From: an uncultured Anaerolineales bacterium
GTDB taxonomy: Bacteria > Chloroflexota > Anaerolineae > B4-G1
Length of the DNA stretch: 27,682 nucleotides
NCBI GenBank assembly: GCA_964486415.1
Contig: CAZANJ010000002.1
Location: forward strand, 1-27,682
Direction of reading: 5' to 3'
In this document: piece by piece, positions 3,835-20,782 of the stretch
Layout of the letters: every line of letters begins with the position of its first letter
Position numbering within the stretch: position 1 is the first letter of the stretch
Notes under the pieces: model-generated
What the model saw: only the letters and a program-made list of their open reading frames with translations
Told to the model about the DNA's origin: nothing
Database searches by the model: none
Position numbers and translations under genes: made by a program

Positions 3835-4686
3835 TCAGGGCATCGATGGCAGTGCTGTGAGCAAGGCGTCATCGAAGTAAACGGCGTGGTAGATCTGTGC
3901 GAACTGCGTTTCCGCGAAGATACAGACCGTTGCTTGGCCTGATTGTCCTATTGTGACCTCTGGAGAGAGGAGCATCACCACCCCATCTTCCTGGTTGATG
4001 ATCTGTTCTTGGCCCCATTGCGCTTCATCACATCCCGCGTTACCTTGAGGGTCTATCCCGGCCTTTACGATGTATCCCCCCTCCGTCTCCTTGACGAATC
4101 CCCTGGCGTTTACCTGGAACTGTAGGACGGTGTTGGGCTCCGCCTGCACTGTTTGGAATACCCAAGCTTGCAATTTCACCCAGGGCGTGGTGTCGATCTT
4201 GAGCGTCGATCCGTTGATCTGGCGTTGAGGATCGGTGGCGGCCTGGAAGCGAGGGGCGGCGTAGGAAGTTTCGGGGTCGAATCCTTCACCCGGCTTCCAA
4301 TTTACGAACCCACCCGTCTGCCAACCGGGAATACTGTTTCTACTGAGGCGGTCGAAGGTTGGATTTTCGAGGGCGATGGGGGCTGGCGTGGGAGGAAGTG
4401 TCACGGTCATACGTTCAACGGGCGTGGCCCAGGAGGTGGGTAGTTCGGTCGGTGTGCTGGTCGGGCTGGGCGTGAGTGTGGCGTATGGCGTGGAGCTTGG
4501 TGTAGGCGTCCAGGTGGGCGGCTCAGTGATGGTCGGTGTAAGTGTAATCGTCGGTGTCTCGGTGGGGGGTAGGCTAGGAGATGCCGGTTGTGTCAATGAA
4601 CTACGCACGGCGTTCACCATCGCGCCTAGGATAATAATATCGGCCAATGCCAGAATTGCTACAATTATCCATTTTCTCCGGGACAT
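3835..4686 (-). CDS. membrane-anchored protein with a Pro/Thr-rich linker and a C-terminal beta-rich (carbohydrate-binding-like) domain
   Basis: Basic N-terminus plus one hydrophobic helix, then PT repeats, then an LENPTFD..PGW-type domain; SD GAGGAG upstream. Function is inferred. Confidence 0.75.
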   Translation of the reverse strand: MSRRKWIIVAILALADIIILGAMVNAVRSSLTQPASPSLPPTETPTITLTPTITEPPTWTPTPSSTPYATLTPSPTSTPTELPTSWATPVERMTVTLPPTPAPIALENPTFDRLSRNSIPGWQTGGFVNWKPGEGFDPETSYAAPRFQAATDPQRQINGSTLKIDTTPWVKLQAWVFQTVQAEPNTVLQFQVNARGFVKETEGGYIVKAGIDPQGNAGCDEAQWGQEQIINQEDGVVMLLSPEVTIGQSGQATVCIFAETQFAQIYHAVYFDDALLTALPSMP

Positions 4687-4786: not shown

Positions 4787-4815
4787 TTGACATCATTGCT
4801 GAGATGTGGTAAACT
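4787..4815 (+). promoter_or_regulatory. sigma70 promoter of the nuo operon
   Basis: TTGACA-17 nt-TAAACT with a TGTG extended -10 element. Confidence 0.75.
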
Positions 4816-4882
4816 CTATCCCGTTGTAGCCTTCTCGTCGAAAGCCGATTGAATACCATAGTGATCACCTTGGAGGAGCACA

Positions 4883-5239
4883 TTGCTGAATCAGTTTACT
4901 TTCGTCGGTGTTTTTCTTGTTATTGCGCTTGCTTTTGGTGTTGCCCCGATTGCTATTGCCTTCTTCTTACGCCCCAAGAAACCCAATTCTCGTAAAGCGT
5001 CTACCTATGAGTGCGGTCTAGAACCCTACGGTGATGCTTGGGTTCAATTCAAAGCACAGTACTATATTTTCGGCCTGGCCTTTGTCATCTTTGATGTCGA
5101 GGCCGTTTTGTTGTTGCCATGGGCTGTGGCATATCACGCGTTGGGGCTTTATGCCGTGATCGAGGCTATGATTTTCATCCTCATTTTGCTTGGCGCTCTG
5201 GTTTATGTCTGGCGCAAGGGCGCGCTTGAGTGGATGTAA
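4883..5239 (+). CDS. nuoA: complex I subunit A (TTG start)
   Basis: YECG loop, FVIFDVE, WRKGALEW; SD GGAGG. Confidence 0.96.
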   Translation: MLNQFTFVGVFLVIALAFGVAPIAIAFFLRPKKPNSRKASTYECGLEPYGDAWVQFKAQYYIFGLAFVIFDVEAVLLLPWAVAYHALGLYAVIEAMIFILILLGALVYVWRKGALEWM

Positions 5240-5313
5240 TTTATCGCGTGGCGTGATGCAACTGAGGATAGGGCGATTAGATTAGCGATCGACGCTGGGA
5301 TGGAGCTTTTTCT

Positions 5314-6501
5314 ATGGAATTTATCAAGGACTTGATCCTCAATATCGGTGGCTGGTTGCAAGGGCTATTGATGGGCACAGGGTTGGCTCCCTCTTGGGTG
5401 CAGGTGATTATGCACCTCATCGGTGGAGTTGCGTTGGCCATTGTCCCATTGGTAGCAGTGATTTTCCTCATCTGGGCAGCCCGTAAGATTGTGGGGCGAA
5501 TGCAGGATCGGCTCGGCCCCAATAACTCCGGTCCTTACCCCGGACCTTACGCTATTTTCCAGACTTTTGCTGATGCCGTCAAGATGCTGACAAAGGAAGA
5601 TGTTGTCCCCACCGCGGCCGATCGGGGAGTTTTCAACATTGCTCCAGTGGTGATCTTGGCTTCCGCCGTGCTGGTTTGGGCTGTCATTCCCTTGGGCAAA
5701 GGGCTCATCGGCGCCGATCTAAACATCGGCGTTTTTTACATTCTCTCCATTGGCTCATTGAGCCTGATCGCGCTGATGATGGCGGGATTGGGGTCCAATA
5801 ACAAGTATGCTTTAGTGGGCGCATTGCGTGCGATAGCCAGTCTGATCAGTTATGAGGTACCGCAGGTCATCGCTGTTATGACGGTGGTCATGGTCTCCGG
5901 CTCCTTCTCTATGCAACAGATCGTCGAAGCGCAGCAAGTGCCTTTTATATTCGTGATGCCCCTGACCGCTTTTCTATTCTTCGTCGGTTCCCTGGCCGAG
6001 GTAGGCCGGCAGCCCTACGACCTGACGGAGGCGGATTCGGAGATTGTGGCCGGTTACTTCGTCGAGTACAGCGGGATGAAGTTTGGGCAGTTCTATCTAT
6101 CGGAGTTTATGAATAACTTTGCCCTTGCCGTCATCACCGCGACACTCTTCCTCGGCGGGTGGCGTGGGCCATTTGTGGAAAGTGTGCCTGTTCTGGGATC
6201 GCTTTGGCTTCTGCTCAAGGCATTGCTCGTCTTCTTCGTTCTCCTGTGGTTGTGGGGTACGATGCCCCGCTTGCGCATTGACCACATGTTGAGCTTCAAT
6301 TGGAAGTTTTTGGTTCCCTTGGCGCTGGCGAACTTGTGTGTAGTGGCCTTAGTAGGCAAAATAGTGCCAATGAGCGCTCCTCCTTTAGTGCGTGCGGGAG
6401 CGTTTTTGGGGTCCAATATCCTGTTGGTATTGATTGTGTTGGTAGTGCTGGCGATTGCCGGTCGCCGAGCTCGGCGGCAGCAGCTAGAGGTTAGTGGCTA
6501 G
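5314..6501 (+). CDS. nuoH: complex I subunit H
   Basis: QDRLGPN, ADAVKMLTKE, ISYEV, RQPYDLTEADSEIVAGYFVEYSG, PRLRIDH. Confidence 0.96.
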   Translation: MEFIKDLILNIGGWLQGLLMGTGLAPSWVQVIMHLIGGVALAIVPLVAVIFLIWAARKIVGRMQDRLGPNNSGPYPGPYAIFQTFADAVKMLTKEDVVPTAADRGVFNIAPVVILASAVLVWAVIPLGKGLIGADLNIGVFYILSIGSLSLIALMMAGLGSNNKYALVGALRAIASLISYEVPQVIAVMTVVMVSGSFSMQQIVEAQQVPFIFVMPLTAFLFFVGSLAEVGRQPYDLTEADSEIVAGYFVEYSGMKFGQFYLSEFMNNFALAVITATLFLGGWRGPFVESVPVLGSLWLLLKALLVFFVLLWLWGTMPRLRIDHMLSFNWKFLVPLALANLCVVALVGKIVPMSAPPLVRAGAFLGSNILLVLIVLVVLAIAGRRARRQQLEVSG

Positions 6502-6511
6502 GGATTAGACC

Positions 6512-7015
6512 ATGCAAATTACACTTCAACAAATCTTGTTCATTATCTTAGGCGCGATCACGTTGGGGGCAGCCTTGATGGTGGTGACGCGTCGTAATGT
6601 TTTCCACGCTGCACTCTTTCTCATCTTATCCTTCTTCGGTGTGGCAGGGCTTTATGTATTGCTAGAGGCCCCTTTTCTCGCCGCCGTACAGCTGTTCATT
6701 TACATCGGCGGTATCTCGATCCTGATTATCTTCGCCATTATGCTCACGCAGAACATGATGGATCCCAACTTGCCGGGAGCCAATCGCCAGTGGTGGGCTG
6801 CGGCCTTGGTGGCCGTGGCTATTTGCGGCATTCTGGGGTGGGTGGTGTTGAACCGTAATTGGGGGACGGCTAGCGCAGAGGTGCCTCAAAACACCATCAC
6901 GATTTTGGGTACGGCTCTGATGGACCCGGAGGGATTGTTGTTGCCTTTTGAGGTGGCCTCGGTCCTTCTCTTAGTCGCTCTCGTCGGTGCTGTGACTATT
7001 GCAAGGGAGCAATGA
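6512..7015 (+). CDS. nuoJ: complex I subunit J
   Basis: QLFIYIGGISILIIFAIML and LLPFEVASVLLLVAL. Confidence 0.95.
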   Translation: MQITLQQILFIILGAITLGAALMVVTRRNVFHAALFLILSFFGVAGLYVLLEAPFLAAVQLFIYIGGISILIIFAIMLTQNMMDPNLPGANRQWWAAALVAVAICGILGWVVLNRNWGTASAEVPQNTITILGTALMDPEGLLLPFEVASVLLLVALVGAVTIAREQ

Positions 7016-7018
7016 TTT

Positions 7019-7327
7019 ATGGTTCCTTTAGCTTGGTATCTTATTCTGGCAGCAGCTTTGTTCTGCATAGGATTGTATGGCGTTCTCTCGCGGCGTAATG
7101 CTGTGGCGATTTTGATGGGCGTCGAGCTGATGCTGAACGCTGTCAACATCAATCTGGTCGCCTTTTGGCGCCATCTGGAGCCGGGAGCGGCGACAGGGCA
7201 AGCCTTCGCACTTTTCGTCTACGTCGTCGCGGCTGCCGAGGCAGCCGTGGGCTTGGCGCTCATAATAGCCGTGTGGCGCACCCGTGACACTGTTGTCCTC
7301 GAAGACATCGATTTGCTCAAAGGTTAA
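7019..7327 (+). CDS. nuoK: complex I subunit K
   Basis: [10 protein letters not shown] and [11 protein letters not shown]; both conserved Glu residues are present. Confidence 0.96.
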
Positions 7328-7341
7328 ACACCGAGGTGACT

Positions 7342-9753
7342 ATGGAGATTCTCAACCTTGCTTGGCTGATACCCCTCTTCCCATTTCTTGCATTTGTTTC
7401 AATAGCGATCTTCGCCCACCGAAGTCGCCGATTGAGCCACCAGTTGACCATTGGTGGTATCGCCTTTGCTTTTCTGATCGCGCAGATTGTCTTTTGGCGG
7501 GCGGTGACTTTGCCGGTGGGGGGCGGCGAGCATGCCTTCGAGTCATCGGCCATCCACTGGCTGGTTGCGGGTGAAGAACGGCTCACACTTGGCGTCTACG
7601 TCGATCCAGCCACGGCGGTGATGCTCTTTATGGTGCCCTTGGTCTGTATGATGATCTTCATCTACAGCGTCGGCTACATGAACTTCGGCACACCGGAGGT
7701 CGATCCCCGTTACAGCCGTTTCTTCTGTTACCTCTCCCTCTTTGCCACCGGCATGTTGGGAATGGTGGTTTTTAATAACCTGCTGGCCTTCTTCATCTTC
7801 TGGGAGATTATGGGGACTTGTTCTTATCTGTTGATCGGCTTCTGGTATGATAAAAGTTATCCCGATCCCGATAAAATCACCCCTAAGGAGGCCGGGCTGA
7901 AGGCCTTCATCGTCACCAAGATCGGCGATTTGTTCTTTATGCTTGGCTTGGCCTTGCTCTACGCCGAGGTGGGATCGCTGGCCTACCGGGACATCTTCGC
8001 CGCCGAGACGCTGGAGCATCTGGCCCATGCTAACTTCCTGGGAACTCAATGGTCGCTGGCCTCCGTGATCGCCCTGCTCTTGTTTGGCGGCACTGTCGGT
8101 AAGAGCGCACAGTTCCCGCTCCACGTCTGGCTGCCCGACGCGATGGAGGGGCCCACACCTGTCTCCGCCCTCATCCACGCCGCAACGATGGTTTCGGCCG
8201 GCGTCTTCCTCGTGGTGCGCTCCTTCCCGATTTTCGCTGCGGTCGAGGGCACCCATATGACGATTGTGGCGACCATTGGGGCTTTCACGGCCATCTTTTC
8301 GTCCGTCATCGCCATCGCGCAAGATGATATAAAGGGAGTGCTGGCCTTCTCTACTATCAGTCAGTTGGGATATATGGTTGCTGCGTTGGGTATCGGCGCT
8401 TATGTGGCTGGAGCCTTCCACCTCATCACTCACGCTTTCTTCAAGGCGCTCTTGTTCCTCAGTTCCGGCTCGGTGATCCACGGTATGGAACATGGACATC
8501 ATCACGTCCACGAGCATGCGGAGCACCACAATGATGATAATGAGAATCATGAGGAGCATGATGAGCACGGCGAGCACGAGGAAGAGGAGTGGTTCAACCC
8601 CAATGACATGAAGAATATGGGCGGCCTGGCAAAACGTATGCCGCGTACCGCTTTGCCATTTCTCGCCGGTGGGTTGGCTCTCTCCGGTTTTCCCCTGTTC
8701 ACTGCCGGTTTCTGGTCGAAGGATGAGATACTGGCCCAGGCTTACGAGCTATCCCCCGCCGTCTTCTGGACGCTGGGTATGGCCGCTGTGCTGACCGCTT
8801 TCTACACCGCGCGTCAACTCTGCTTGACCTTCCTGGGGGAGCCGCGCACCGAGGCCGCCAAGCACGCGCCGGAGAGTGTGCCATCTATGACGACCCCCCT
8901 GGCTATCCTGGCTGTCTTCGCCATTATTCTGGGCTGGGCTGGTATTCCGGAGCATTTCCCCGTCATCGGTGGGATTATCCCCAACTGGGTCCATCACTTC
9001 GTCGGATCGACAATTGCGGGGGGGCACGCTGAGCATGCAACGAAAGTAGCCGGGCATCTCTCGGAGGCCGCAGAGGCAGGCTTTGTATGGCAGCCATTGG
9101 TGATGAGCATCCTCTTCGCGCTGGGCGGGTTGACGTTGGGGTGGTTGGTTTATGGCCGCAAGCCGATGGTAGCCGGTGAGATGGATCGGGTGGAAGCAGC
9201 AATGCGCAAAGTGGGCCTGGGATGGCTGTACGAAGCTATGCGCAACCAATTCTACTTCGATGAAATCTACCAGACGATAGTTGTGCGCCCCTCCATCTGG
9301 TTGGCGGACGTTTTTGACACGTTCGACTATGGCCGCGAAGAGGGCAAGCATGGCGTGGTAGATGGCATAGTGACCTTGGCCGGGAAGATAGGAAGGGCTG
9401 TGTCCGACATATCCGGATGGCTTGATGCCAAAATTGTGGATGGATTGGTCAACCTGGTCGGGGGCTTAGGAAAGGCCATATCCTGGGTCAGTGGTTGGCT
9501 CGACGTCAACATCGTGGATGGGTTGGTCAATCTGGCGGGCAGCGCTGGAGCCCTGCTATCCAATGGGCTCAACAGCTTCGATCTCACTGTGGTGGACGGC
9601 GCCGTCAACGGCGTCGCCGATGTCGTCATGGGCGGTGGGAAGGCAATCCGCCCCATTCAGACCGGTAAAGTTCAAAACTATCTGCTGCTGGCATCCCTGA
9701 TGGTGCTGGCATTAATCTTGACATTCTTTGTGATATTGTTCTTGCAAATCTAG
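7342..9753 (+). CDS. nuoL: complex I subunit L with a His/acidic insertion and a greatly extended lateral helix (alternative GTG start at 7336)
   Basis: FWEIMG, GKSAQFPLHVWLPDAMEGPTPVSALIHAATMV, HAFFKALLFL, FWSKDEI, QTGKVQNY. Confidence 0.96.
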   Translation: MEILNLAWLIPLFPFLAFVSIAIFAHRSRRLSHQLTIGGIAFAFLIAQIVFWRAVTLPVGGGEHAFESSAIHWLVAGEERLTLGVYVDPATAVMLFMVPLVCMMIFIYSVGYMNFGTPEVDPRYSRFFCYLSLFATGMLGMVVFNNLLAFFIFWEIMGTCSYLLIGFWYDKSYPDPDKITPKEAGLKAFIVTKIGDLFFMLGLALLYAEVGSLAYRDIFAAETLEHLAHANFLGTQWSLASVIALLLFGGTVGKSAQFPLHVWLPDAMEGPTPVSALIHAATMVSAGVFLVVRSFPIFAAVEGTHMTIVATIGAFTAIFSSVIAIAQDDIKGVLAFSTISQLGYMVAALGIGAYVAGAFHLITHAFFKALLFLSSGSVIHGMEHGHHHVHEHAEHHNDDNENHEEHDEHGEHEEEEWFNPNDMKNMGGLAKRMPRTALPFLAGGLALSGFPLFTAGFWSKDEILAQAYELSPAVFWTLGMAAVLTAFYTARQLCLTFLGEPRTEAAKHAPESVPSMTTPLAILAVFAIILGWAGIPEHFPVIGGIIPNWVHHFVGSTIAGGHAEHATKVAGHLSEAAEAGFVWQPLVMSILFALGGLTLGWLVYGRKPMVAGEMDRVEAAMRKVGLGWLYEAMRNQFYFDEIYQTIVVRPSIWLADVFDTFDYGREEGKHGVVDGIVTLAGKIGRAVSDISGWLDAKIVDGLVNLVGGLGKAISWVSGWLDVNIVDGLVNLAGSAGALLSNGLNSFDLTVVDGAVNGVADVVMGGGKAIRPIQTGKVQNYLLLASLMVLALILTFFVILFLQI

Positions 9754-9838
9754 CAAGTAGGCAAGTGGGCAAGTGGGCTAGTAGGCAAGTGAACAAGTAG
9801 CATAGATAAGTCGGACACTTGCAGACCTGCAAACTTGC
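9753..9838. repeat. octamer array: 6 direct units (GCAAGTRG-like) followed by 3 inverted units (..ACTTGC)
   Basis: gcaagtag gcaagtgg gcaagtgg gctagtag gcaagtga acaagtag ... acacttgc agacctgc aaacttgc. Confidence 0.8.
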
Positions 9839-9863
9839 AGACTCAAAAGAAGGAGAGCATACT

Positions 9864-11390
9864 ATGTTTCCAATTCTAAGCGTTACCCTGTTTGCCCCGC
9901 TGGTGGGCGCCCTACTCATTTTGGTCATCCCGCGTGAGGATGTTAAGACAATCCGGCGGATGGGGACCGCGTTTGCTTTCCTGACGCTCATCCTCACAAC
10001 TATCATCTGGGTGAGTGTGGCGCAGTCAGGGGCCGGCGTTATGCAGTTTGAGGAGAACTATCCCTGGATCAAGGCATTCAATGTGCGGTTTCACCTCGGG
10101 GTGGATGGTCTCAGTGCACCTTTGCTCTTCTTGACTGCCCTGTTGACCACTCTTGTGACGTTCTACTCATCTTATACCATTGACGACCGGGTCAAGGAAT
10201 ACTATTTCTTGTTCCTGTTGCTTGAGATGGGTATGAGCGGTGTATTCCTTTCCCTGGATCTGGTGCTGTTCTACGTCTTCTGGGAGATCGGTTTGGTGCC
10301 GATGTTCTTGCTTATCGGTGTGTGGGGCGGAAAGCGCCGCCTGTACGCGGCCATCAAGTTCTTCCTCTACACGCTCGTGGGCAGCGTGGCGATGTTGCTG
10401 GCCATCATCGGCGTTTATTTCCAAACCGGCACCTTCGACATATTGGAAGCGGCTGCGGCACAACCCTTCGCTGGCAATTTCACTTGGGCTAGTGTAGCTT
10501 TTTGGGCCTTCTTCGTCGCCTTTGCCATCAAGGTGCCAGCTTTCCCCTTCCACACTTGGTTGCCAGACGCTCATACAGAGGCGCCCACTTCGGGTAGTGT
10601 CATTCTGGCGGGCGTCTTGCTGAAGTTGGGGGCTTATGGTTTGATGCGTATCGCGCTGCCATTCTTCCCAGCACAGTTCAAGTACTTTGTCGTGAACGTG
10701 CCAATTGTTCCCATTATGGCGGTGATGAGTATTGCCTACGGAGCGATGGTCTGTATGGCGCAGTGGGACCTTAAACGGCTGGTTGCTTACTCCTCGGTGG
10801 CTCATATGGGCTACGTCACACTGGGGCTATGCGCGGCAGCGGCTGGCATCGGGATGCTGGATGATCCGGCGAACCTCAGCGCGGCGGCCTCGGGCCTCAG
10901 CGGCGCGGCATTCCAGATGTTCGCGCACGGCATCATCACGGGAGGGATGTTTTTCCTGGTCGGTATGATCTACGATCGGGCCCACACGCGCGACCTGAAG
11001 GTCTTTGGCGGACTCGGTAAGCAGATTCCTTATTATTACGGGATTGTGATGGTTACCGGGTTTGCGTCCCTGGGGCTTCCCGGCTTGGCTGGCTTCTGGA
11101 GTGAGTTCTTCGTCTTCCGGGGCACAATCCGCTTTATCCCCTTGGCCGCTTTCATCGGCGTGATCGGAGTAGTCTTCACCGCTGCCTATATCCTGTGGAA
11201 AGTTGTACAGCACCTCTTCTTGGGGGATCTGGACAAGGAGAAGTGGGGCAAGCTGACCGACATGACCTGGTGGGAAAAGGTAACAATGTGGCCTTTGGTG
11301 ATCATCATGGTTTTCCTCGGTATCTATCCCGCTCCCCTGCTGGATATGTTCAACGCTGCGCTCACAGGGGTTTTGCGGGCGCTGCCGTAA
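9864..11390 (+). CDS. nuoM: complex I subunit M (start set at ATG 9864 after SD AAGGAG)
   Basis: LGVDGLS, FWEIGLVPM, AIKVPAFPFHTWLPDAHTEAP, LLKLGAYG, DLKRLVAYSSVAHMG, FWSEF. Confidence 0.96.
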   Translation: MFPILSVTLFAPLVGALLILVIPREDVKTIRRMGTAFAFLTLILTTIIWVSVAQSGAGVMQFEENYPWIKAFNVRFHLGVDGLSAPLLFLTALLTTLVTFYSSYTIDDRVKEYYFLFLLLEMGMSGVFLSLDLVLFYVFWEIGLVPMFLLIGVWGGKRRLYAAIKFFLYTLVGSVAMLLAIIGVYFQTGTFDILEAAAAQPFAGNFTWASVAFWAFFVAFAIKVPAFPFHTWLPDAHTEAPTSGSVILAGVLLKLGAYGLMRIALPFFPAQFKYFVVNVPIVPIMAVMSIAYGAMVCMAQWDLKRLVAYSSVAHMGYVTLGLCAAAAGIGMLDDPANLSAAASGLSGAAFQMFAHGIITGGMFFLVGMIYDRAHTRDLKVFGGLGKQIPYYYGIVMVTGFASLGLPGLAGFWSEFFVFRGTIRFIPLAAFIGVIGVVFTAAYILWKVVQHLFLGDLDKEKWGKLTDMTWWEKVTMWPLVIIMVFLGIYPAPLLDMFNAALTGVLRALP

Positions 11391-11467
11391 CTAAAACGTG
11401 AAAACGTAAAGCGTAGGTGTGACTCAAAACATCACATTCGCGCTTTATGTATAGTAGGAGGACAACG

Positions 11468-12943
11468 TTGTTCGGAGAACCGACACTCACGTTAGGCCAG
11501 ACGCTATGGCTGCTCTCGCCGGAACTGGTGCTTCTCTTGACAGGCTTCCTCATTATGGGACTGGATGCTATCCATCCGCAAAAAGAGGAAAAGCGCTGGG
11601 TGCCTTATGTTGCCTTGGGAGGGCTAGCCGTTGCCCTGATCGCATCTATCACCCTTTGGGGTTGTAACACCAGGGTGCTCTTCATGTTTTCCTGTGACCC
11701 CTTCTCGTTGGTCGTTAATATGGTGGCTATGTTGGCTGTGGGGCTTGTGATACTCACATCCGACCTGTACATTCGAGTGCATAGTCGGTATCAGGGTGAG
11801 TTTTACGCTCTCCTGCTCTTCTCAGCTCTAGCCATCTGCCTGTTGGGTGGGGCGACTAACTTGATTATGGTCTTCTTGGCTTTTGATTTCCTGAGCATCA
11901 CGTCATATATTCTCACCGGCTACTTGCGTGAGGATCAAAAGTCAACAGAGGCTGCGATCAAGTATTTTCTCTACGGCGCAGCTCTCTCCGCAATAATGCT
12001 TTATGGAATGTCCTGGTTCTATGGGCTGACCGGCTCCACAGACCTGAGCGGTATTGCAATGGTTCTCATGGAAGGGGAGCGTGTACTGCGTCCAATCATC
12101 TTGCCAGCCTTGATCTTTATCGCCGCTGGCTTCGCCTTCAAAATCGCCGCTGTGCCATTTCACCAATGGGCTCCTGATGCTTATGAAGGTGCCCCGACTC
12201 CGGTAACGGCTTTTCTCTCTGTCGGGCCCAAGATCGGTGGCTTCGCTGTCATCCTACGGGTGCTTTTAACCGCCTTGCCTGGTGATCTGGTGAACCTGGC
12301 GATGGATTGGCGGGCACTGCTGATGGCGGTCTCTATGCTCACGATGACGGTCGGCAATCTGGTAGCGCTTTGGCAGAAGAACATCAAACGCCTGCTGGCT
12401 TACTCCAGCATCGCGCAGGCCGGTTACATCCTTATCGGCGTGGTGGCAGCCTCTCCTCGGGGAGCGACGGCGGTTTTGCTCTACTTGGCGGCTTATGTGC
12501 TGACCAACTTGGGCGTTTTCGCCGCTATCATCGCTTTCTCCAACCAGGTCGGGTCCGATGACATAGACGATTACGCGGGACTGAGCAAGCGGGCTCCTGG
12601 GCTGGCCTTGGTGATGATTGTCTGTCTGCTCTCGTTAGGAGGCCTCCCACCGACGGCCGGCTTCATCGGCAAGCTGTGGCTCTTCTCCGCGGCGATCGAG
12701 GATGGGTTAATCTGGCTCGCTGTGGTCGGCGTGATCAACAACGTCATCTCTCTATCCTACTACTGGAAGGTAATCCGCGCGATGTACCTCACCCCTGCGC
12801 AGAACGGGGAACCGCTGTCTACCTCGTCCGCGCTGGCTGTTGCGCTGGGGGTGTCTGTGGTGGGCGTTCTGGTCGTGGGAGTCTTCCCTGGCCCGCTTCT
12901 GGCACTGCTCCAGGCAGCAGCGCTGACCTTTTTCGGCGGGTGA
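11468..12943 (+). CDS. nuoN: complex I subunit N (TTG start after SD AGGAGG)
   Basis: EAAIKYFL, FKIAAVPFHQWAPDAYEGAPTP, NIKRLLAYSSIAQAGY, GFIGKL. Confidence 0.95.
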   Translation: MFGEPTLTLGQTLWLLSPELVLLLTGFLIMGLDAIHPQKEEKRWVPYVALGGLAVALIASITLWGCNTRVLFMFSCDPFSLVVNMVAMLAVGLVILTSDLYIRVHSRYQGEFYALLLFSALAICLLGGATNLIMVFLAFDFLSITSYILTGYLREDQKSTEAAIKYFLYGAALSAIMLYGMSWFYGLTGSTDLSGIAMVLMEGERVLRPIILPALIFIAAGFAFKIAAVPFHQWAPDAYEGAPTPVTAFLSVGPKIGGFAVILRVLLTALPGDLVNLAMDWRALLMAVSMLTMTVGNLVALWQKNIKRLLAYSSIAQAGYILIGVVAASPRGATAVLLYLAAYVLTNLGVFAAIIAFSNQVGSDDIDDYAGLSKRAPGLALVMIVCLLSLGGLPPTAGFIGKLWLFSAAIEDGLIWLAVVGVINNVISLSYYWKVIRAMYLTPAQNGEPLSTSSALAVALGVSVVGVLVVGVFPGPLLALLQAAALTFFGG

Positions 12944-12967
12944 CTCGTCATGGGCTCAGTCGAACGA

Positions 12968-12995
12968 TTGTCTTCTGAGGGGATTGTGTTATAAT
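12968..12995 (+). promoter_or_regulatory. internal sigma70 promoter in front of the Fo genes
   Basis: TTGTCT-16 nt-TATAAT with a TGTG extended -10 element. Confidence 0.6.
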
Positions 12996-13005
12996 GTTTC
13001 CCGCT

Positions 13006-13503
13006 ATGGATACCGGAAATAAACAAGGGAACGAACTACAGGCCGTCATCCTCCCCTCTTTGGGGCTGGGTATTCAGATCGCTGGTGTGGTGGTAGTGGC
13101 GGTGCTGGGCAGCCTGTTCCTGGGGCTGTGGATTGACCGCCGACTGGGGAGCACTCCCTGGGCCACGCTGCTTTTGTTGGGCCTGGGTACGCTGGTGGCC
13201 ATGATCAGCTGCTACCGCGCGATGGCCCCGGTGATCGCACATCTGGCAGCCGGTCAGGAGGTCGAGTGGGGAGAATCCCTGCGCACCCTGGCTTTCGTCG
13301 CTCAGACGGAGCTGGTGGTCACCACTCCGCTGCTGGTCGGTCTCTTGCTGGGTCTGTGGGTGGACGTTCGATTGGATACTAGTCCATGGGTGACCTTGGC
13401 TCTGACGGTTTTGGGGGCTGTGGCGGGGTTGGTGGGCGCATGGCGCTTGCATTCTGCATTTCTGAAACGAACGGCTAAAGGTGATCAAGAGGAGAATCTG
13501 TAA
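13006..13503 (+). CDS. AtpZ/ATPase gene-1-like membrane protein with two tandem domains (alternative start 12994)
   Basis: Two copies of the G.W.D....(T/S).PW hairpin motif, GLWIDRRLGSTPW and GLWVDVRLDTSPW; first gene of the atp cluster. Confidence 0.75.
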   Translation: MDTGNKQGNELQAVILPSLGLGIQIAGVVVVAVLGSLFLGLWIDRRLGSTPWATLLLLGLGTLVAMISCYRAMAPVIAHLAAGQEVEWGESLRTLAFVAQTELVVTTPLLVGLLLGLWVDVRLDTSPWVTLALTVLGAVAGLVGAWRLHSAFLKRTAKGDQEENL

Positions 13504-14324
13504 TGGAACTTGTGCGCGAGTTGCCCCACATCTCAATGGCTGCTGAGACGCTCTTTCACATCGGTCCTTTGCCCGTCACCAATTCCCTTTTTACTACGTG
13601 GATTTGCATGTTGCTCCTCATTGTTCTCTCATGGTTGTTCTCCAAGAGTATGAAGCTTGTTCCCACTCCCTTGCAGAACCTGATCGAGACGGCCATTGAG
13701 ATGTTTTACGACGGCGTAGCCAAAGCGAGGGCCAGCGAGCATGCTGAACTTTTTCTTCCCCTTGCTGGCACCCTTTTCTTCTTCATCCTCCTCGCCAACT
13801 GGATGGGTTTGCTGCCGTTCTTTGGATCTGTTGGATTCATAATGGAGCACCATGGTGAAGAGATGTTCGTTCCTTTGTTGCGCCCGGCCAATGCTGACCT
13901 GAACACCACGCTTGCTCTGGCACTCTTCTCAGTGATCGCCACCCAGATCTACGGGATCAAGGTGCAAGGCTTCTTCGGCTACGCCAACCGATTTATTAGA
14001 GTGGACAGATTCGTGGAGTTCTTCAAGCGACGGCGCGACCCTATGTTGCTTATGAATGGCGTAATCGATCTCTTCATCGGGGCGTTGGAGATGCTTGACG
14101 AGCTGACGAAGCTTCTCTCCTTCTCCTTCCGTCTGTTCGGCAATATCTTCGCCGGTGAGGTGTTGCTGATCGTGATTTCTATGCTGCTTCCCTACGTCGC
14201 ACCGTTGCCTTTTATGGCACTGGAGCTTTTCGTCGGTTACATTCAGGCTCTTATTTTTGCAAGTCTGACGCTGGTCTTCATGAAGCAAGCAACAGCTGCC
14301 CATGGTCACGACGAAGGGCACTGA
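13503..14324 (+). CDS. atpB: ATP synthase Fo subunit a
   Basis: LLRPANADLNTT, SFSFRLFGNIFAGE with the essential Arg, ELFVGYIQALIF. Confidence 0.96.
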   Translation: MELVRELPHISMAAETLFHIGPLPVTNSLFTTWICMLLLIVLSWLFSKSMKLVPTPLQNLIETAIEMFYDGVAKARASEHAELFLPLAGTLFFFILLANWMGLLPFFGSVGFIMEHHGEEMFVPLLRPANADLNTTLALALFSVIATQIYGIKVQGFFGYANRFIRVDRFVEFFKRRRDPMLLMNGVIDLFIGALEMLDELTKLLSFSFRLFGNIFAGEVLLIVISMLLPYVAPLPFMALELFVGYIQALIFASLTLVFMKQATAAHGHDEGH

Positions 14325-14450
14325 ACGCTCTAAATCGAAAAAAGGACGTAATGCGTAAGAACCTGAACGTTAGTGGATCTATCGTAAGGTAAGAATAGAT
14401 GAGAATCCGAAAGTTAGTGAATTTGAATCGTAACAAGGAGGAAAAACAAA

Positions 14451-14669
14451 ATGGATAAGAATCTGATAGCAGCGTTGACTATCGTTCTGGGGGCTATTAC
14501 GCCGGCTGCGATGATTGGCCGCTTCTCGACCGAGGCGATGCGATCGCTGGGGCGCAATCCAGAGTCTGGCGCTCCGATCAGCGCCAATCTGATCCTGGCG
14601 TTGGCCCTGAGCGAGGCGATTGCCATCTATTCCTTGGTGGTCGCTCTGGCCATCAAGTTCGTGGAGTAA
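14451..14669 (+). CDS. atpE: ATP synthase Fo subunit c
   Basis: GRNPE loop and the ion-binding Glu in LSEAIAIY; strong SD AAGGAGG. Confidence 0.95.
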   Translation: MDKNLIAALTIVLGAITPAAMIGRFSTEAMRSLGRNPESGAPISANLILALALSEAIAIYSLVVALAIKFVE

Positions 14670-14685
14670 GATAAGGAGGCTGGCT

Positions 14686-15201
14686 TTGGAAGCCCTAGGG
14701 ATTAACCTATATGTTCTGATCGCCCAGGTCATCAACCTTGCCATTCTGTTCCTCGTGCTCCGTTCTTTGCTCTTCAAGGGTTTTCTGAAGAAGATGGAAG
14801 AGCGCAAGCAGAAGATCCAGCAGGGCCTAGAGGAGGCCGAGCGCGCCCAAGAAAAGGCGACGCGAGCCGAGGCGATCTACCAGGAGCGCATGGAGCAGAT
14901 TGAGCGGGAGCGGGAAGCCCTCATTGCCGAGGCAAGGGAAGAGGCCGAGCGGCTGCGGGCAGAGATGGTGGCGCAGGCGCGAGAGGATGCCCGTGAAGAG
15001 GCGCGCCGCATCATCGCGCAGGAACGGGAAGAGTTCGAGGCCGAGCGCCAGCAGGCTATCGCCGATATGCACAGCCAGATGGTCAGCCTGGTTATGACTG
15101 CCACCCGCAAGGTGGTCGAGGAGGGCATAGACGAGCAGGTGCAACACCGGCTGATTGATCGCTTCCTGGACGAGACGGGCGCGCTGGGGAGAATCCAATG
15201 A
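14686..15201 (+). CDS. atpF: ATP synthase Fo subunit b (TTG start after SD AGGAGG)
   Basis: EALGINL..LIAQVINL TM helix followed by a long E/A/R coiled coil. Confidence 0.92.
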   Translation: MEALGINLYVLIAQVINLAILFLVLRSLLFKGFLKKMEERKQKIQQGLEEAERAQEKATRAEAIYQERMEQIEREREALIAEAREEAERLRAEMVAQAREDAREEARRIIAQEREEFEAERQQAIADMHSQMVSLVMTATRKVVEEGIDEQVQHRLIDRFLDETGALGRIQ

Positions 15202-15701
15202 ATAGTAACAGCAATCCTGCCGAGGCCTGGGAAGGTGACCTGAAAACAATCGCGGAGCGGCTGCAGCGTCGAAATCTGATATCGCCGGAGCAAGCCACGA
15301 CCTTGGAAGCGCTGACCAGTGAGTTTGAGAGACTTTCCAAGTACGAGCCCGGTATGGCGATGCCGCTGGTAGCCACGATATTCTGGGCTGTCGAGTTCGA
15401 GCGGCTGTCACAGCAGCAGGCACAGGCCGCCGGGATGGTGGCGTGGGTGCGCAGCGCGGTTCCACTCACTGGGGAAGAGCGCGAACAGCTCAGACGCCGT
15501 CTACGAGAACATTTCGGTCAAGATTTTGTCCTGCGCGTGGAGGTTGACCCGTCACTCATTGGCGGCCTGGTGGTTCGAGCCAAAGACCGGGTCTTCGACA
15601 GCAGCGTTGCTGGCAGGTTGGACGCCCTCGATGAACGCCTGAGAACCGCTGTTGAAGAACAGATATCACTTGCTCAGGAACTCCAAGAGACAGATGAATA
15701 A
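15198..15701 (+). CDS. atpH: ATP synthase delta-like protein (canonical C-terminal domain, unrecognised N-terminal domain)
   Basis: VRSAVPL..L...L...VDPSLIGGLVVR..D.V.DSSV.GRL. Confidence 0.85.
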   Translation: MNSNSNPAEAWEGDLKTIAERLQRRNLISPEQATTLEALTSEFERLSKYEPGMAMPLVATIFWAVEFERLSQQQAQAAGMVAWVRSAVPLTGEEREQLRRRLREHFGQDFVLRVEVDPSLIGGLVVRAKDRVFDSSVAGRLDALDERLRTAVEEQISLAQELQETDE

Positions 15702-15715
15702 AAAGGAGTAGCCGT

Positions 15716-16024
15716 ATGCCACAAATTCCCGAATTGGCGAACGCCGTTCTCTTTTTTGCTCCCGGCTTCCTGCTCGTGCAGACGCTCTACCTTGGCGGCA
15801 TTGCACGCAGACGCTCGAATTTTGAAACGGTGGTCTGGAGCGTCATCGTCGGTGTGTTCATCCGTTGGGCCTCCGCGGAGCTTGTCGGACGACTTAGTTT
15901 GGGGATCGAGCCAGGCTTGGATCTGGAGATAGCTCTCCTGGGCCTGACCCTCGCTGCGGGTGTGATTGTACGAACGTTTGTCTCCCTGTTTGCCTTCGGG
16001 AGAGAGGAAGAGGAACGGGTATAG
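15716..16024 (+). CDS. small hypothetical membrane protein (about 3 TM), possibly DUF6338-like
   Basis: SD AAGGAG; hydrophobic, with FFAPGFL...SNFETVVWS. The family resemblance is from memory only. Confidence 0.6.
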   Translation: MPQIPELANAVLFFAPGFLLVQTLYLGGIARRRSNFETVVWSVIVGVFIRWASAELVGRLSLGIEPGLDLEIALLGLTLAAGVIVRTFVSLFAFGREEEERV

Positions 16025-16027
16025 GTA

Positions 16028-16141
16028 ATGACCAATGAGCCAATTACAAATGATAGCGGGCTGATGGTGCGCGTGGGCGAGTGGGTGGTGGGCGGCAGCG
16101 TCGCTGGACAACTAGAGCAATTGCAACAATCCTTGATCTAG
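16028..16141 (+). pseudogene. 37-codon ORF carrying the C-terminal end of a second ATP synthase delta domain
   Basis: GLMVRVGEWVVGGSVAGQLEQLQQSL aligns without gaps to GLVVRAKDRVFDSSVAGRLDALDERL of the upstream delta (12/26 identical). Confidence 0.6.
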
Positions 16142-16218
16142 AAGATAATATCTCACTGTAGTTGTTTATCAATCCGGTCTGGCAAGTAGTTGATAAGATA
16201 GTTCAACCGCAGAAATGT

Positions 16219-16255
16219 AAGAGCAGTTCGTACTCAGTTTGTGCGGACTGCTCTT
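16219..16255 (+). terminator. 15-bp stem-loop, possible terminator or stabiliser after the atp cluster
   Basis: AAGAGCAGTTCGTAC-tcagttt-GTGCGGACTGCTCTT, fully paired allowing two G-U pairs; the U-tract is weak. Confidence 0.45.
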
Positions 16256-16314
16256 GTGGTTTTCTGGCTGACGGAGAAAGCCTAATCTGCTGAATAGAGG
16301 GAGGAACCGAAAAG

Positions 16315-16539
16315 ATGACTACTCGTGAAGTCATATTAAATATGCCCGAGGGGCTGTACAGTCAGCTTGAAGCGGCAGCGACTCAGATGCAGCGTGATAC
16401 CAACTCGGTTATCTTGGATGCTCTTTCTGCCTACGTTCCTCCTCTTACGCCCGATTTGAACGCTGAGTTAGCGGCCTGGGACACTCTCAGCGACGAGGCC
16501 CTATGGGACTTCGAAAGCGATCTGAAGACTTCAAGCTGA
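16315..16539 (+). CDS. putative type II antitoxin (RHH-like N-terminus, acidic C-terminus)
   Basis: 74 aa, SD GGAGG, TGATG overlap with a PemK-like gene; ELAAWD..SDEALW tail. Confidence 0.7.
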   Translation: MTTREVILNMPEGLYSQLEAAATQMQRDTNSVILDALSAYVPPLTPDLNAELAAWDTLSDEALWDFESDLKTSS

Positions 16540-16876: not shown

Positions 16877-16970
16877 AATTCCTAACGTAAGCCCCACGCT
16901 TTTTGGGAGCAAAATTATTGCTCGGCGCCTTTGTGGTATCTAATGGTGTAGACGAGTTAGGAACACAGAA

Positions 16971-18524: not shown

Positions 18525-18528
18525 AGGC

Positions 18529-20703: not shown

Positions 20704-20782
20704 ATTCCTTTCTCCTATTTTTCAAAACTTTTCCATTGTAACTGCTTGAGTTGAATCTGGTGATTTGAATATAGCTTAGCAG

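What the first reader, a model, noticed from the sequence alone, without database searches (positions are those of the whole stretch)
4787..16141. Candidate new bioenergetic locus: complex I membrane arm directly adjacent to an Fo-only ATP synthase cluster
Seen: twelve co-oriented genes (nuoA-H-J-K-L-M-N, atpZ-like, B, E, F, H). Eleven are membrane proteins, and every catalytic soluble subunit of both machines is absent from the locus. The nuoN-to-atp gap is only 50-62 bp with no terminator hairpin. Proton-translocating residues are retained in both modules, so neither looks decayed. Inference, three alternatives: (a) the genome separates membrane from soluble subunits, with nuoBCDI(EFG) and atpAGDC in other loci; (b) these are interchangeable membrane modules that dock onto non-standard soluble partners; (c) they form a physically linked pump-rotor supercomplex, perhaps bridged by the extended NuoL helix. 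I do not recall this arrangement being described.
Basis: partly seen in the sequence, partly recalled or inferred. Interest (0 to 1): 0.85.

Follow-up and report, generated by a model that had tools for sequence, protein, structure and literature searches.

The report
Adjacent split complex-I and ATP-synthase operons
An Anaerolineales (Chloroflexota) bacterium keeps the membrane-subunit genes of respiratory complex I next to the membrane-and-stalk genes of its ATP synthase; the order is conserved in relatives, but the two are separately promoted pieces of ordinary split operons, not a new machine.

Summary
The window carries nuoA-H-J-K-L-M-N, then atpZ-B-E-F-H, all on the + strand. No nuoB/C/D/I/E/F/G and no atpA/G/D/C lie anywhere in the 27.7 kb. 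The junction assembles identically in two samples.

The adjacency is not unique. At least 10 Anaerolineales lineages share it, with NuoN or NuoL identity down to about 52%. None has atpA after atpH.

It is still two units:
- A sigma-70-type promoter with an extended -10 sits just upstream of atpZ in 10 of 12 lineages.
- That promoter travels with the atp cluster when nuoN is not upstream.
- A near-conspecific genome (NuoL 96% identical) has a 10.8-kb aldehyde-oxidoreductase/hydrogenase island, including an opposite-strand gene, between nuoN and atpZ.

Both splits are known kinds. Separation of nuoBCDI from the nuo operon is reported for cultured Chloroflexi. An atp split between delta and alpha is reported for Chlorobi. 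Across 7 of 8 metagenomes, an atpD-like contig tracks the sister strain's Fo cluster in depth (r = 0.99).

Reading (a) is supported. Readings (b) and (c) are not. The more unusual feature is NuoL: its lateral helix holds four tandem 26-residue units, with only one nuoM in the cluster.

The parts
4787..4815 (+). Promoter-like site upstream of nuoA (TTGACA-17-TGgTAAACT)
   Evidence: Consensus scan. Promoter-like sites of the same kind (-35 hexamer plus TG-extended -10, one or two per locus) lie upstream of nuoA in L093, L009, L002, L003, L004 and L013.
4883..5239 (+). nuoA (118 aa, TTG start after GGAGGA)
   Evidence: PF00507, E = 2e-36. D and E in FVIFDVEAV.
5314..6501 (+). nuoH (395 aa)
   Evidence: PF00146, E = 2e-106. 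Acidic cluster AEVGRQPYDLTEADSEIVAGYFVEYSG.
6512..7015 (+). nuoJ (167 aa)
   Evidence: PF00499, E = 1e-38.
7019..7327 (+). nuoK (102 aa)
   Evidence: PF00420, E = 2e-29. Two membrane Glu residues.
7336..9753 (+). nuoL (805 aa, about 150-200 aa longer than canonical NuoL)
   Evidence: NF005141 equivalog, 596.8 bits against a cutoff of 556. Alignment to PDB NdhF and Nqo12. AF2 model with mean pLDDT 85.4.
8488..8595 (+). His/Asp/Glu-rich loop insertion in NuoL (aa 385-420)
   Evidence: Unaligned against PDB NuoL/NdhF sequences. Sequence. Lowest-confidence stretch of the AF2 model, with pLDDT below 50 at aa 405-414.
9355..9678 (+). NuoL lateral helix (HL): four tandem 26-residue units starting at aa 674, 700, 726 and 752, against one unit in the canonical NuoL/NdhF sequences aligned
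   Evidence: Sequence and PDB alignment. Relatives carry 2-5 units. AF2 predicts one continuous helix over aa 674-775, followed by TM16.
9819..11390 (+). nuoM (the only copy; the true start is probably the ATG at 9864)
   Evidence: PF00361, E = 8e-72, plus a weak PF01059 match. E/K/K/E residues present.
11447..12943 (+). nuoN (498 aa)
   Evidence: TIGR01770, 413 bits against a cutoff of 332.6. The TM5 carboxylate is Asp, clade-wide.
12968..12995 (+). Promoter of the atp unit: TTGTCT-16-TGTGTTATAAT, an extended -10
   Evidence: Consensus scan. Positionally conserved in L002, L013, L009, L014, L024, L035, L096 and L001, and inside the nuoN 3' end in L097.
13006..13503 (+). atpZ/atpI-like membrane protein with two PF09527 domains. 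Start is the ATG at 13006 by homology, about 10 nt after the -10, so near-leaderless. An in-frame ATG at 12994 lies inside the -10.
   Evidence: PF09527, E = 2e-22, two stretches. N-termini of L001, L002 and L013 homologues.
13503..14324 (+). atpB (Fo subunit a)
   Evidence: PF00119, E = 6e-44. Canonical F-type models score above the alternate/N-type model. Arg in FSFRLFGN is invariant.
14451..14669 (+). atpE (Fo subunit c, H+-type)
   Evidence: PF00137. Glu in LSEAIAIY, without the Q...ES..Y Na+ motif seen in the N-type c subunit of L010.
14686..15201 (+). atpF (subunit b; TTG start after AAGGAGG)
   Evidence: TIGR01144, 79.1 bits against a cutoff of 65.5. Start matches L001 (MEALGINLY).
15198..15701 (+). 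atpH (delta/OSCP; only the C-terminal half matches delta models)
   Evidence: PF00213 matches profile positions 92-172. TIGR01145 scores 55.1 against a cutoff of 57.5.
15716..16024 (+). orfX, a small protein that I read as about three hydrophobic helices (no transmembrane predictor was run); no family match
   Evidence: No Pfam or NCBIfam hit. Homologues at the same position in L013 (47% identity) and L024 (34%).
16216..16268 (+). Intrinsic-terminator-like hairpin (18 pairs) plus a U-rich tail, ending the atp unit
   Evidence: Consensus scan. Fold of -32.6 kcal/mol, z = -4.3.

Best explanation
The locus is two conventional transcription units lying head to tail. Unit 1 is nuoA-H-J-K-L-M-N, the membrane subunits of a Chloroflexota-type complex I. 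Its quinone-module genes (nuoB, nuoC/D, nuoI) are encoded elsewhere. Unit 2 is atpZ-B-E-F-H (plus orfX), the Fo sector and stalk of an ordinary H+-coupled F1Fo ATP synthase. Its operon is split between delta and alpha, so atpA-G and atpD-C lie elsewhere.

Each unit has its own sigma-70-type promoter with an extended -10, and one strong terminator follows the atp unit. No terminator separates the two units, so some read-through from nuo into atp is possible. It is not required.

The head-to-tail order is ancestral in a clade of Anaerolineales. It is a matter of gene order, not a new assembly. The products should join standard soluble partners to make a standard complex I and a standard ATP synthase.

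Shown: gene identities, residues, conservation of the adjacency, conservation of the promoter, and dispensability of the adjacency. Inferred: the location of the soluble-subunit genes in this genome, promoter activity, and read-through.
For: Identity and intactness.

Adjacency is conserved.
- nuoN is followed directly by atpZ in L002, L006-L008, L009, L013, L014, L024 and L029, and L096 and L097.
- No atpA follows atpH, or the b-delta fusion, in any of the 11 loci where downstream sequence is visible.
- About 35 more distant AtpB relatives keep the canonical atpB-E-F-H-A-G-D order, and none has nuo genes next to atpB where upstream sequence is visible.

The atp unit is independent.
- The promoter TTGnnn-16/17-TG(n)TAnnnT sits at the same place in 10 of 12 lineages.
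- In L001 the upstream neighbour is an opposite-strand hycI and the promoter is still there.
- In L097 the promoter lies inside the nuoN coding sequence.

The adjacency is dispensable.
- MAG contig CAZDYW010000001.1 (NuoL 96% and Rho 99% identical) has the same dnaG-sigma70-nuoA..N upstream and the same murLigase-rho downstream. It carries 10.8 kb (AFOR, Fer4, FlpD, NiFe hydrogenase, hycI) between nuoN and atpZ.
- Logan contigs of equal depth tile this arrangement in two runs.
- L003 follows nuoN with mazEF and nrdR. L004 and L010 follow it with AFOR.

Both splits are known kinds.
- A delta|alpha split is known in Chlorobi (PMC4154653).

F1 elsewhere: an atpD-like contig, with translated flank ATIVLERSIV, matches the depth of the sister strain's Fo cluster in 7 metagenomes (43.9/36.7, 53.7/52.5, 32.2/29.1, 5.2/5.4, 11.2/13.9, 7.3/5.8, 30.7/32.8; r = 0.986). 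It lies on contigs separate from the Fo cluster. The 14.9-kb Fo-bearing contig in X10 is a different record from the atpD-like contig of matching depth.
Against: - The window is a whole 27.7-kb metagenome contig. nuoB/C/D/I and atpA/G/D/C of this genome were never seen.
- The atpD link is by depth covariation in a sister strain. One of eight runs (X8) did not show the allele. F-type and N-type beta cannot be told apart from the fragments.
- The adjacency is kept over deep divergence with gaps of 7-138 nt and no terminator. That suggests selection for co-expression, which a purely accidental order would not predict.
- Promoters are consensus matches plus conservation. No RNA data exist for this stretch.
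- The 78 extra residues in the NuoL lateral helix are not explained by a standard L-M-N arm.
Confidence: 0.8

Rival explanations
1. The adjacency is under selection as a membrane-subunit super-operon. Read-through from the nuo promoter couples expression, and perhaps co-translational membrane insertion, of the complex I membrane arm and Fo. The internal promoter only adds extra atp transcription. The enzymes themselves are standard. This is an add-on to the best explanation, not an alternative to it.
For: - Same-strand adjacency is kept in at least 10 lineages, down to about 52% NuoN or NuoL identity, with gaps of 7-138 nt and no terminator.
- The adjacency persists even though AtpB types and NuoN groups are incongruent, which suggests atp alleles were replaced in situ.
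- A third membrane pump gene, H+-PPase, sits inside the nuo cluster in L009 and just after the atp cluster in L013, L024, L035 and L043.
Against: - The atp unit keeps its own promoter nearly everywhere.
- A near-conspecific strain tolerates a 10.8-kb island with an opposite-strand gene in between.
- L003, L004 and L010 lack the adjacency.
- No RNA data.
Confidence: 0.3
2. Reading (b): the membrane modules dock onto non-standard partners. One example is a nuo arm extended by extra antiporter-like or other membrane modules and driven by an alternative electron-input module. Another is an Fo that shares an F1 head with the N-type ATPase found in relatives.
For: - The NuoL lateral helix has 3 extra 26-residue units, and one such insertion accompanies one extra NuoM in '2M' enzymes (PMC9040806). 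Here only one nuoM is in the cluster.
- Relatives L004 and L010 carry an N-ATPase-like operon directly upstream of the nuo genes.
- Delta lacks a recognisable N-terminal domain.
Against: - Subunits a, c and b score as canonical F-type, above the alternate-ATPase models.
- The N-type operon has its own a, c and b, and it is not upstream of nuoA in the window, L009 or L093.
- HL unit number does not track nuoM number: the 2M cluster L097 has 3 units, while 1M clusters have 3-4.
- In my ORF calls the delta genes of the canonical-operon relatives are also short (about 108-180 aa).
Confidence: 0.08
3. Reading (c): complex I and Fo form a physically linked pump-rotor supercomplex bridged by the long NuoL helix.
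For: Only the conserved gene adjacency and the long helix.
Against: - Established complex I structures show that HL runs back along the arm from NuoL towards NuoN/K/J and ends in TM16. It does not point outward.
- The adjacency is dispensable in a strain with 96%-identical NuoL, whose NuoL has the same four units.
- L003, L004 and L010 keep 3-4 HL units with no atp cluster after nuoN.
- The rotating c-ring and the stator leave no evident docking need.
- Nothing in the sequence fuses or links the two sets.
Confidence: 0.03
4. Artefact or decay: the junction is a chimeric assembly, or the genes are remnants left after loss of the soluble subunits.
For: One relative (CP070814.1) has a nuoL truncated by an IS110 element, so decay does occur in the order.
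Against: - The junction is covered by contigs in two samples and recurs in at least 10 independent assemblies.
- All ORFs are intact and the functional residues are kept.
- Proteins are 52-96% conserved across lineages.
Confidence: 0.01

Closest known systems
Chloroflexi-type complex I gene organisation (Chadwick et al. 2018, as summarised in PMC7117926): nuoA-H-J-K-L-M(-M2)-N operon with nuoB-CD-I encoded separately
   Same: The operon holds membrane subunits only, in the same order. NuoL has insertions in the lateral helix. The same taxon is involved (Anaerolineae). One relative here (L097) is a true 2M cluster with the same downstream atp genes.
   Different: The window has a single nuoM, yet four 26-residue HL units. 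The papers I could read do not mention the atp cluster immediately downstream.
Split F1Fo atp loci surveyed by Koumandou & Kossida 2014 (PMC4154653), in particular the Chlorobi split I-a-c-b-delta ; alpha-gamma ; beta-epsilon
   Same: The cluster ends after delta. Alpha is not adjacent. An atpI/Z-like gene comes first.
   Different: That survey reported Chloroflexi as unsplit. Here a whole Anaerolineales clade is split. In some members b and delta are fused (245-255 aa) and delta lacks a recognisable N-terminal domain.
N-ATPase (Dibrova et al. 2010, PMC2881411; order beta-epsilon-Q-R-a-c-b-alpha-gamma)
   Same: A PF09527 (AtpQ/gene-1) protein precedes subunit a. Relatives L004 and L010 carry an operon of this order next to the nuo genes, and its c subunit has a Q...ES..Y motif.
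   Different: The window's a and c are only 37% and 32% identical to that operon's. They score higher on canonical F-type models. Its c subunit lacks the Na+ motif, and no beta/epsilon or alpha/gamma genes flank it.
2M complex I of Nitrospira and the five-pump Complex_I_3 of 'Ca. Manganitrophaceae' (PMC9040806)
   Same: There are 26-residue insertions in the amphipathic lateral helix of NuoL/MrpD.
   Different: In those enzymes one insertion goes with one extra pumping subunit encoded in the cluster. Here there are 2-4 extra units and no extra nuoM. That paper also notes NuoL insertions without extra NuoM in other Manganitrophaceae clusters.

Membership tests
Respiratory complex I (NDH-1), membrane-subunit operon of the Chloroflexi split type | All seven membrane subunits A, H, J, K, L, M, N present and intact, in that order | tested here: met
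   Pfam, with E-values from 1e-29 to 1e-106. NuoL and NuoN pass NCBIfam cutoffs.
Respiratory complex I (NDH-1), membrane-subunit operon of the Chloroflexi split type | Conserved charged residues of the proton channels (TM5 carboxylate; TM7, TM8 and TM12 Lys/Glu in L/M/N; NuoK Glu pair; NuoA Asp/Glu) | tested here: met
   Motifs read. NuoN TM5 is Asp rather than Glu, clade-wide.
Respiratory complex I (NDH-1), membrane-subunit operon of the Chloroflexi split type | Q-module genes nuoB, nuoC/D and nuoI present elsewhere in the same genome | not testable with these tools
Only literature on relatives is available (PMC7117926).
F1Fo ATP synthase, split atp locus (Fo plus delta cluster) | Subunit a with the essential Arg, subunit c with the ion-binding carboxylate, and subunits b and delta present | tested here: met
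   Delta matches only positions 91-172 of the 172-position model and scores 55.1 against a cutoff of 57.5.
F1Fo ATP synthase, split atp locus (Fo plus delta cluster) | F1 genes atpA, atpG, atpD and atpC present elsewhere in the genome | tested here: inconclusive
   An atpD-like contig co-varies with the sister strain's Fo cluster in 7 of 8 runs (r = 0.986). This was not shown for the window's own strain, and the F-type or N-type identity of the fragment is unresolved.
F1Fo ATP synthase, split atp locus (Fo plus delta cluster) | Own promoter and terminator, making it an independent transcription unit | tested here: met
   In silico only. The promoter is conserved in 10 of 12 lineages and moves with the cluster. 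Terminator z = -4.3. No RNA runs exist.
N-ATPase | Operon order beta-epsilon-Q-R-a-c-b-alpha-gamma | tested here: not met
   No beta or epsilon gene upstream and no alpha or gamma gene downstream.
N-ATPase | Na+-binding motif in subunit c (Q in helix 1, ES..Y in helix 2) | tested here: not met
   The window's c subunit has I/G at the Gln position and EAIAIY in helix 2. L010's c subunit has Q...ESLAIY.
2M-type complex I | A second nuoM gene between nuoL and nuoN | tested here: not met
   There is a single nuoM in the window and in most relatives. Only L097 has L-M-M-N.
2M-type complex I | A 26-residue insertion in the NuoL lateral helix | tested here: met
   Three extra units in the window. Relatives carry 2-5 units in total.
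   A 10.8-kb island with an opposite-strand gene lies between the clusters in GCA_964509655.1. An internal promoter is present. L003, L004 and L010 lack the adjacency.

The most novel reading that the evidence does not exclude
The NuoL lateral helix of this clade carries 3-5 tandem 26-residue units; the window has 4, giving a predicted continuous helix of about 100 residues. If one unit measures one antiporter-like module, as proposed for 2M enzymes, the membrane arm would hold two or three more modules than the operon encodes. These could be extra copies of NuoM, antiporter-like subunits from another locus, or another membrane protein from the conserved neighbourhood (Fo, AtpZ or H+-PPase). 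That would make an unusually long, high-stoichiometry complex I.
Probability: 0.1. Interest if true: 0.8.

Novelty: new variant of a known kind. Interest (0 to 1): 0.35.

Why it matters
For annotation, this shows that a 'partial' complex I or an 'Fo-only' ATPase in an Anaerolineales MAG is a gene-order trait of the clade. It is not evidence of missing function, and it is not evidence of a new machine. Module-completeness calls for these abundant mat, sediment and digester bacteria should look for nuoB-CD-I and atpAG/atpDC at other loci.

The locus also extends the catalogue of atp-locus splits to Chloroflexota. In addition, it is a clear case of a conserved gene neighbourhood whose two halves exchange alleles and accept a 10.8-kb island.

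The open question worth pursuing is structural. What does a complex I lateral helix with 3-5 tandem 26-residue units span when the operon encodes only L, M and N?

Tried and rejected
- **Exact look-up of the window's NuoN.** Not on record, because the database call starts 7 codons later.
- **GTDB genome scan with AtpB.** Whole-genome searches for nuoBCDI and atpAGDC were therefore impossible.
- **RNA-seq across the junction.** No RNA run holds the stretch.
- **Laying metagenome contigs on a canonical atpA-G-D stretch (L060).** The result was mostly noise from many organisms. It became usable only after following one atpD allele across runs.
- **Chadwick et al. 2018.** Not held in the library. 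I used what PMC7117926 and PMC9040806 say about it.
- **The 3.07-Mb Anaerolineales genome CP070814.1.** It looked promising, but its nuo cluster is broken by an IS110 element and no atp genes lie within 10 kb.
- **Third homologue search, with a canonical F1 alpha or beta query.** Considered and not run. The 120 listed hits would be close relatives of the query, not this clade.
- **Idea that the L004/L010 atp genes are orthologues displaced to the other side of nuo.** Rejected. They are an N-type paralogue with 32-37% identity.
- **Rfam.** No hits in the window.

Full report
**1. What is in the window**

Pfam and NCBIfam scans of all long ORFs give this order:
- dnaG and a sigma-70 gene on the + strand.
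- An unknown 283-aa gene on the - strand.
- On the + strand: nuoA, nuoH, nuoJ, nuoK, nuoL, nuoM, nuoN.
- An atpZ/atpI-like gene with two PF09527 domains, then atpB, atpE, atpF, atpH and a 102-aa ORF with no family match that I read as about three hydrophobic helices (orfX).
- A strong hairpin terminator at 16216-16258.
- A Mur ligase and an alpha/beta hydrolase.
- On the - strand: rho, fbp, a CBS protein, cdsA, uppS, frr, pyrH, tsf, rpsB.

No NuoB/C/D/I/E/F/G and no F1 alpha, beta, gamma or epsilon is encoded in the 27.7 kb. The only alpha/beta-family hit is Rho.

The charged residues expected of working proton channels are present. One conservative exception is an Asp at the TM5 carboxylate of NuoN, and it is clade-wide. 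Subunit c has a lone Glu and no Na+ motif. Subunits a, c and b score higher on canonical F-type models than on 'alternate F1F0' models.

The nuoN-atp gap is 50 nt to the ATG at 12994 and 62 nt to the ATG at 13006. It has no significant fold (z = -0.24). Three amendments apply: delta is a soluble F1-binding stalk subunit, there is a thirteenth ORF, and the gap is not empty.

**2. The junction is real**

The window is a whole contig from a microbial-mat metagenome. In run X1, an independently assembled 11,137-bp contig covers 10500-16500 without a difference. In a second sample, X4, a 610-bp contig crosses the junction.

**3. The adjacency is conserved, not unique**

I looked at the surroundings of NuoN and NuoL homologues and scanned metagenomes with an AtpB alignment. 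nuoN is followed directly by atpZ in:
- L002 (NuoN 84% identical)
- L006-L008 (73%)
- L009 (76%)
- L013, L014, L024 and L029 (81-53%)
- two NCBI Anaerolineales MAGs, L096 and L097 (NuoL 52% and 54%)

In L035, three small ORFs intervene. In many of these the downstream Mur ligase-hydrolase-rho synteny is kept as well.

In none of the 11 loci where downstream sequence is visible does atpA follow atpH or the b-delta fusion. By contrast, about 35 more distant AtpB relatives (50% identity or less) all have the canonical atpB-E-F-H-A-G-D order. None has nuo genes next to atpB where upstream sequence is visible.

So a nuo membrane operon followed by an Fo-plus-delta cluster is an ancestral trait of a clade of Anaerolineales.

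**4. It is nevertheless two units**

A sigma-70-type promoter with an extended -10 lies immediately upstream of atpZ:

| Locus | Promoter |
|---|---|
| window | TTGTCT-16-TGTGTTATAAT |
| L002 | TTGCCT..TGTGCTATAAT |
| L013 | TTGCTT..TGTGCTATAAT |
| L009 | TTGATC..TGTGCTATAAT |
| L014 | TTGCTT..TGTGGTATACT |
| L024 | TTGACA..TATGGTATCAT |
| L035 | TTGACA..TATGGTATCCT |
| L096 | TTGACA..TGAGTACAAT |

In L097 the gap is only 7 nt, and the promoter (TTGATT-17-TATCAT) lies inside the 3' end of nuoN. Only L006 and L029 lack a recognisable site.

In the window, L002, L013 and L001 the -10 ends about 10 nt before the homology-supported start codon (13006 in the window). The first gene would therefore be translated from a nearly leaderless mRNA. 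nuoA has its own conserved promoter or promoters.

**5. The adjacency is dispensable**

The only GTDB hit, MAG contig CAZDYW010000001.1 (GCA_964509655.1), is nearly conspecific. Identities are NuoL 96%, Rho 99%, CBS 99% and UppS 99%.
- It has the same dnaG-sigma70-unknown(-)-nuoA..N upstream.
- It has the same atpZBEFH-Mur ligase-hydrolase-rho downstream.
- Between nuoN and atpZ lie 10.8 kb: a small ORF, aldehyde:ferredoxin oxidoreductase, ferredoxins, an FAD protein, two FlpD/Hdr-like proteins, a NiFe hydrogenase small and large subunit, another ferredoxin, and hycI on the opposite strand.

The atp promoter is still there, now preceded by 270 bp of non-coding DNA.

Logan contigs confirm this arrangement. 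The same 3,064-bp contig matches the window's nuoN at about 96% identity and the AFOR gene of L001. Contigs of equal depth tile the island in runs X11 and X7.

Between this genome and the window the atp cluster is only about 79% identical in DNA, while the downstream flank averages 92%. Across the clade, AtpB types and NuoN groups are also incongruent. This suggests the atp segment has been replaced in situ more than once.

Other relatives break the adjacency in different ways:
- L003 follows nuoN with mazEF and nrdR.
- L004 and L010 follow it with AFOR. They have an N-ATPase-like operon (epsilon-Q-a-c-b-alpha-gamma; c subunit with Q...ES..Y) upstream of the nuo genes.
- That operon is a paralogue, 32-37% identical to the window's a and c.

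**6. Where the soluble subunits are**

This could not be settled for the window's own genome.

[quoted passage not shown] The genes were found on a separate contig of a Chloroflexi MAG (PMC7117926, citing Chadwick et al. 2018).

*atp.* Splits of the locus are common, and a split between delta and alpha is reported for Chlorobi. The Chloroflexi sampled in 2014 were unsplit (PMC4154653).

*A depth-based test.* I followed one atpD-like allele, recognised by a fixed alignment pattern and the translated flank ATIVLERSIV, through eight metagenomes that hold the sister strain.

| Run | Fo cluster depth | atpD-like contig depth |
|---|---|---|
| X11 | 43.9 | 36.7 |
| X12 | 53.7 | 52.5 |
| X13 | 32.2 | 29.1 |
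| X14 | 5.2 | 5.4 |
| X7 | 11.2 | 13.9 |
| X9 | 7.3 | 5.8 |
| X10 | 30.7 | 32.8 |
| X8 | about 12 | not seen |

Over the seven runs with both values, r = 0.986. The atpD-like gene is always on a contig separate from the Fo cluster. In X10 the Fo cluster sits on a 14.9-kb contig, and the atpD-like piece of matching depth is on a different, 525-bp record.

This is binning-grade evidence that an F1 beta gene lies elsewhere in the same population. It is not proof, and the fragments cannot distinguish F-type from N-type beta.

A further argument is indirect. Every member keeps delta or a b-delta fusion, which has no known role except to hold F1.

**7. The long NuoL**

NuoL is 805 aa. Against solved NuoL/NdhF sequences it has two insertions:
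- A His/Asp/Glu-rich loop at aa 385-420.
- About 78 residues in the lateral helix.

The helix insertion consists of three extra copies of a 26-residue unit (VVDGxVNLxGxxGxxxSxxSxWLDxx). There are four tandem units, starting at aa 674, 700, 726 and 752, where the canonical NuoL/NdhF sequences aligned have one.

Relatives carry 2-5 units. With a 116-sequence alignment, AlphaFold2 predicts one continuous helix over aa 674-775, then TM16. Mean pLDDT is 85. Along the helix it falls from about 80 to about 50.

In 2M complex I, one 26-residue insertion has been proposed to accommodate one extra NuoM (PMC9040806). Here the cluster has a single nuoM. The one true 2M relative (L097) has only three units. 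So unit number does not track the nuoM genes in the cluster, and this is unexplained.

It does not support a bridge to Fo. In solved complex I structures the helix runs back along the arm. Relatives with no atp cluster after nuoN (L003, L004, L010) keep 3-4 units.

**8. Verdict**

Reading (a) is supported. Readings (b) and (c) are not.

What is new:
- The delta|alpha split of the atp locus in a Chloroflexota clade.
- Its conserved position behind the nuo membrane operon, often alongside an H+-PPase gene.
- The multi-unit lateral helix.

None of these calls for a new kind of machine. Interest is modest for the locus as proposed. The NuoL helix is the part that deserves a structural follow-up.

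Noticed in passing
window 9355-9678 (NuoL aa 674-781); also L002, L003, L004, L006, L009, L010, L013, L035, and proteins P0121-P0240: The lateral helix of NuoL is built of four tandem 26-residue units, against one in the canonical NuoL/NdhF sequences aligned. Relatives have 2-5 units. Unit number does not track the number of nuoM genes: the 2M cluster L097 has 3 units, while 1M clusters have 3-4.
   Followed up: yes
window 8488-8595 (NuoL aa 385-420): There is a His/Asp/Glu-rich low-complexity loop (EHGHHHVHEHAEHHNDDNENHEEHDEHGEHEEEE) just before the conserved DMxxMGGL motif. It is absent from solved NuoL/NdhF sequences. It looks like a metal-binding or acidic loop.
   Followed up: partly
L009 3578-5662; L013 12938-13195; L024 6310-8058; L035 7496-9205; L043: A membrane H+-pyrophosphatase gene (PF03030) sits between nuoJ and nuoK in L009. 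In four other lineages it lies directly downstream of the atp cluster. That is a third ion-pump gene recurring in the same neighbourhood. The window itself has none.
   Followed up: partly
L010 1-5427 and L004 1-3143: An N-ATPase-like operon (epsilon-Q-a-c-b-alpha-gamma) lies immediately upstream of the nuo genes in two relatives. Its c subunit has a Q...ESLAIY Na+-type motif, and its alpha has a roughly 40-residue N-terminal extension. In L010 atpG is followed by nuoK, with no nuoA/H/J called in between.
   Followed up: partly
window 12982-16117 against L001 9479-12607; flanks window 16315-24260: Mosaic divergence. The atp cluster is about 79% identical in DNA to the sister genome, while the downstream flank averages 92%, nuoN is about 96% identical, and Rho, CBS and UppS are 99% identical in protein. 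AtpB types (three groups) are also incongruent with NuoN groups across the clade. This suggests repeated in-situ replacement of the atp segment.
   Followed up: partly
window 13006-13503: The AtpZ/AtpI-like protein is a tandem duplication with two PF09527 domains (165 aa). This holds in the window, L001, L002, L013 and L097. The other atp types (L006, L009, L035, L096) have a single-domain protein of 86-94 aa.
   Followed up: no
window 15198-15701; L006 13097-13852; L009 13163-13930; L096 16866-17603: Delta matches only the C-terminal half of delta/OSCP models. In several relatives b and this delta C-terminal domain are fused into one protein of 245-255 aa. The 'alternate F1F0' b model (TIGR03321) has the same architecture. 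How the stator grips F1 without a recognisable delta N-domain is unclear.
   Followed up: partly
window 15716-16024: orfX is a 102-aa protein that I read as about three hydrophobic helices, with no family match. It directly follows atpH inside the same promoter-terminator unit. It is conserved at that position in L013 (47% identity) and L024 (34%), so it may be an accessory Fo or assembly protein.
   Followed up: partly
window 12990-13008: The -10 element ends about 10 nt before the atpZ start codon in the window, L001, L002 and L013. This implies a near-leaderless first gene. An in-frame ATG at 12994 lies inside the -10 and is probably not used.
   Followed up: partly
window 11447-12943 (NuoN aa 147): The TM5 carboxylate of NuoN is Asp (FLAFDFLSI) rather than the usual Glu. 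At least 77 of the 79 listed NuoN homologues where the motif was found also have Asp there.
   Followed up: yes
L095 9851-13441 (CP070814.1, 3.07-Mb Anaerolineales genome): Only a 44-aa nuoK fragment remains, and nuoL is truncated (623 aa) next to an IS110-family transposase. This looks like a decaying nuo cluster in a relative.
   Followed up: no
window 3835-4686 (- strand): A 283-aa ORF with no Pfam or NCBIfam match sits between the sigma-70 gene and nuoA. It is conserved at the same place and with the same length in the sister MAG (L093 6498-7349).
   Followed up: no
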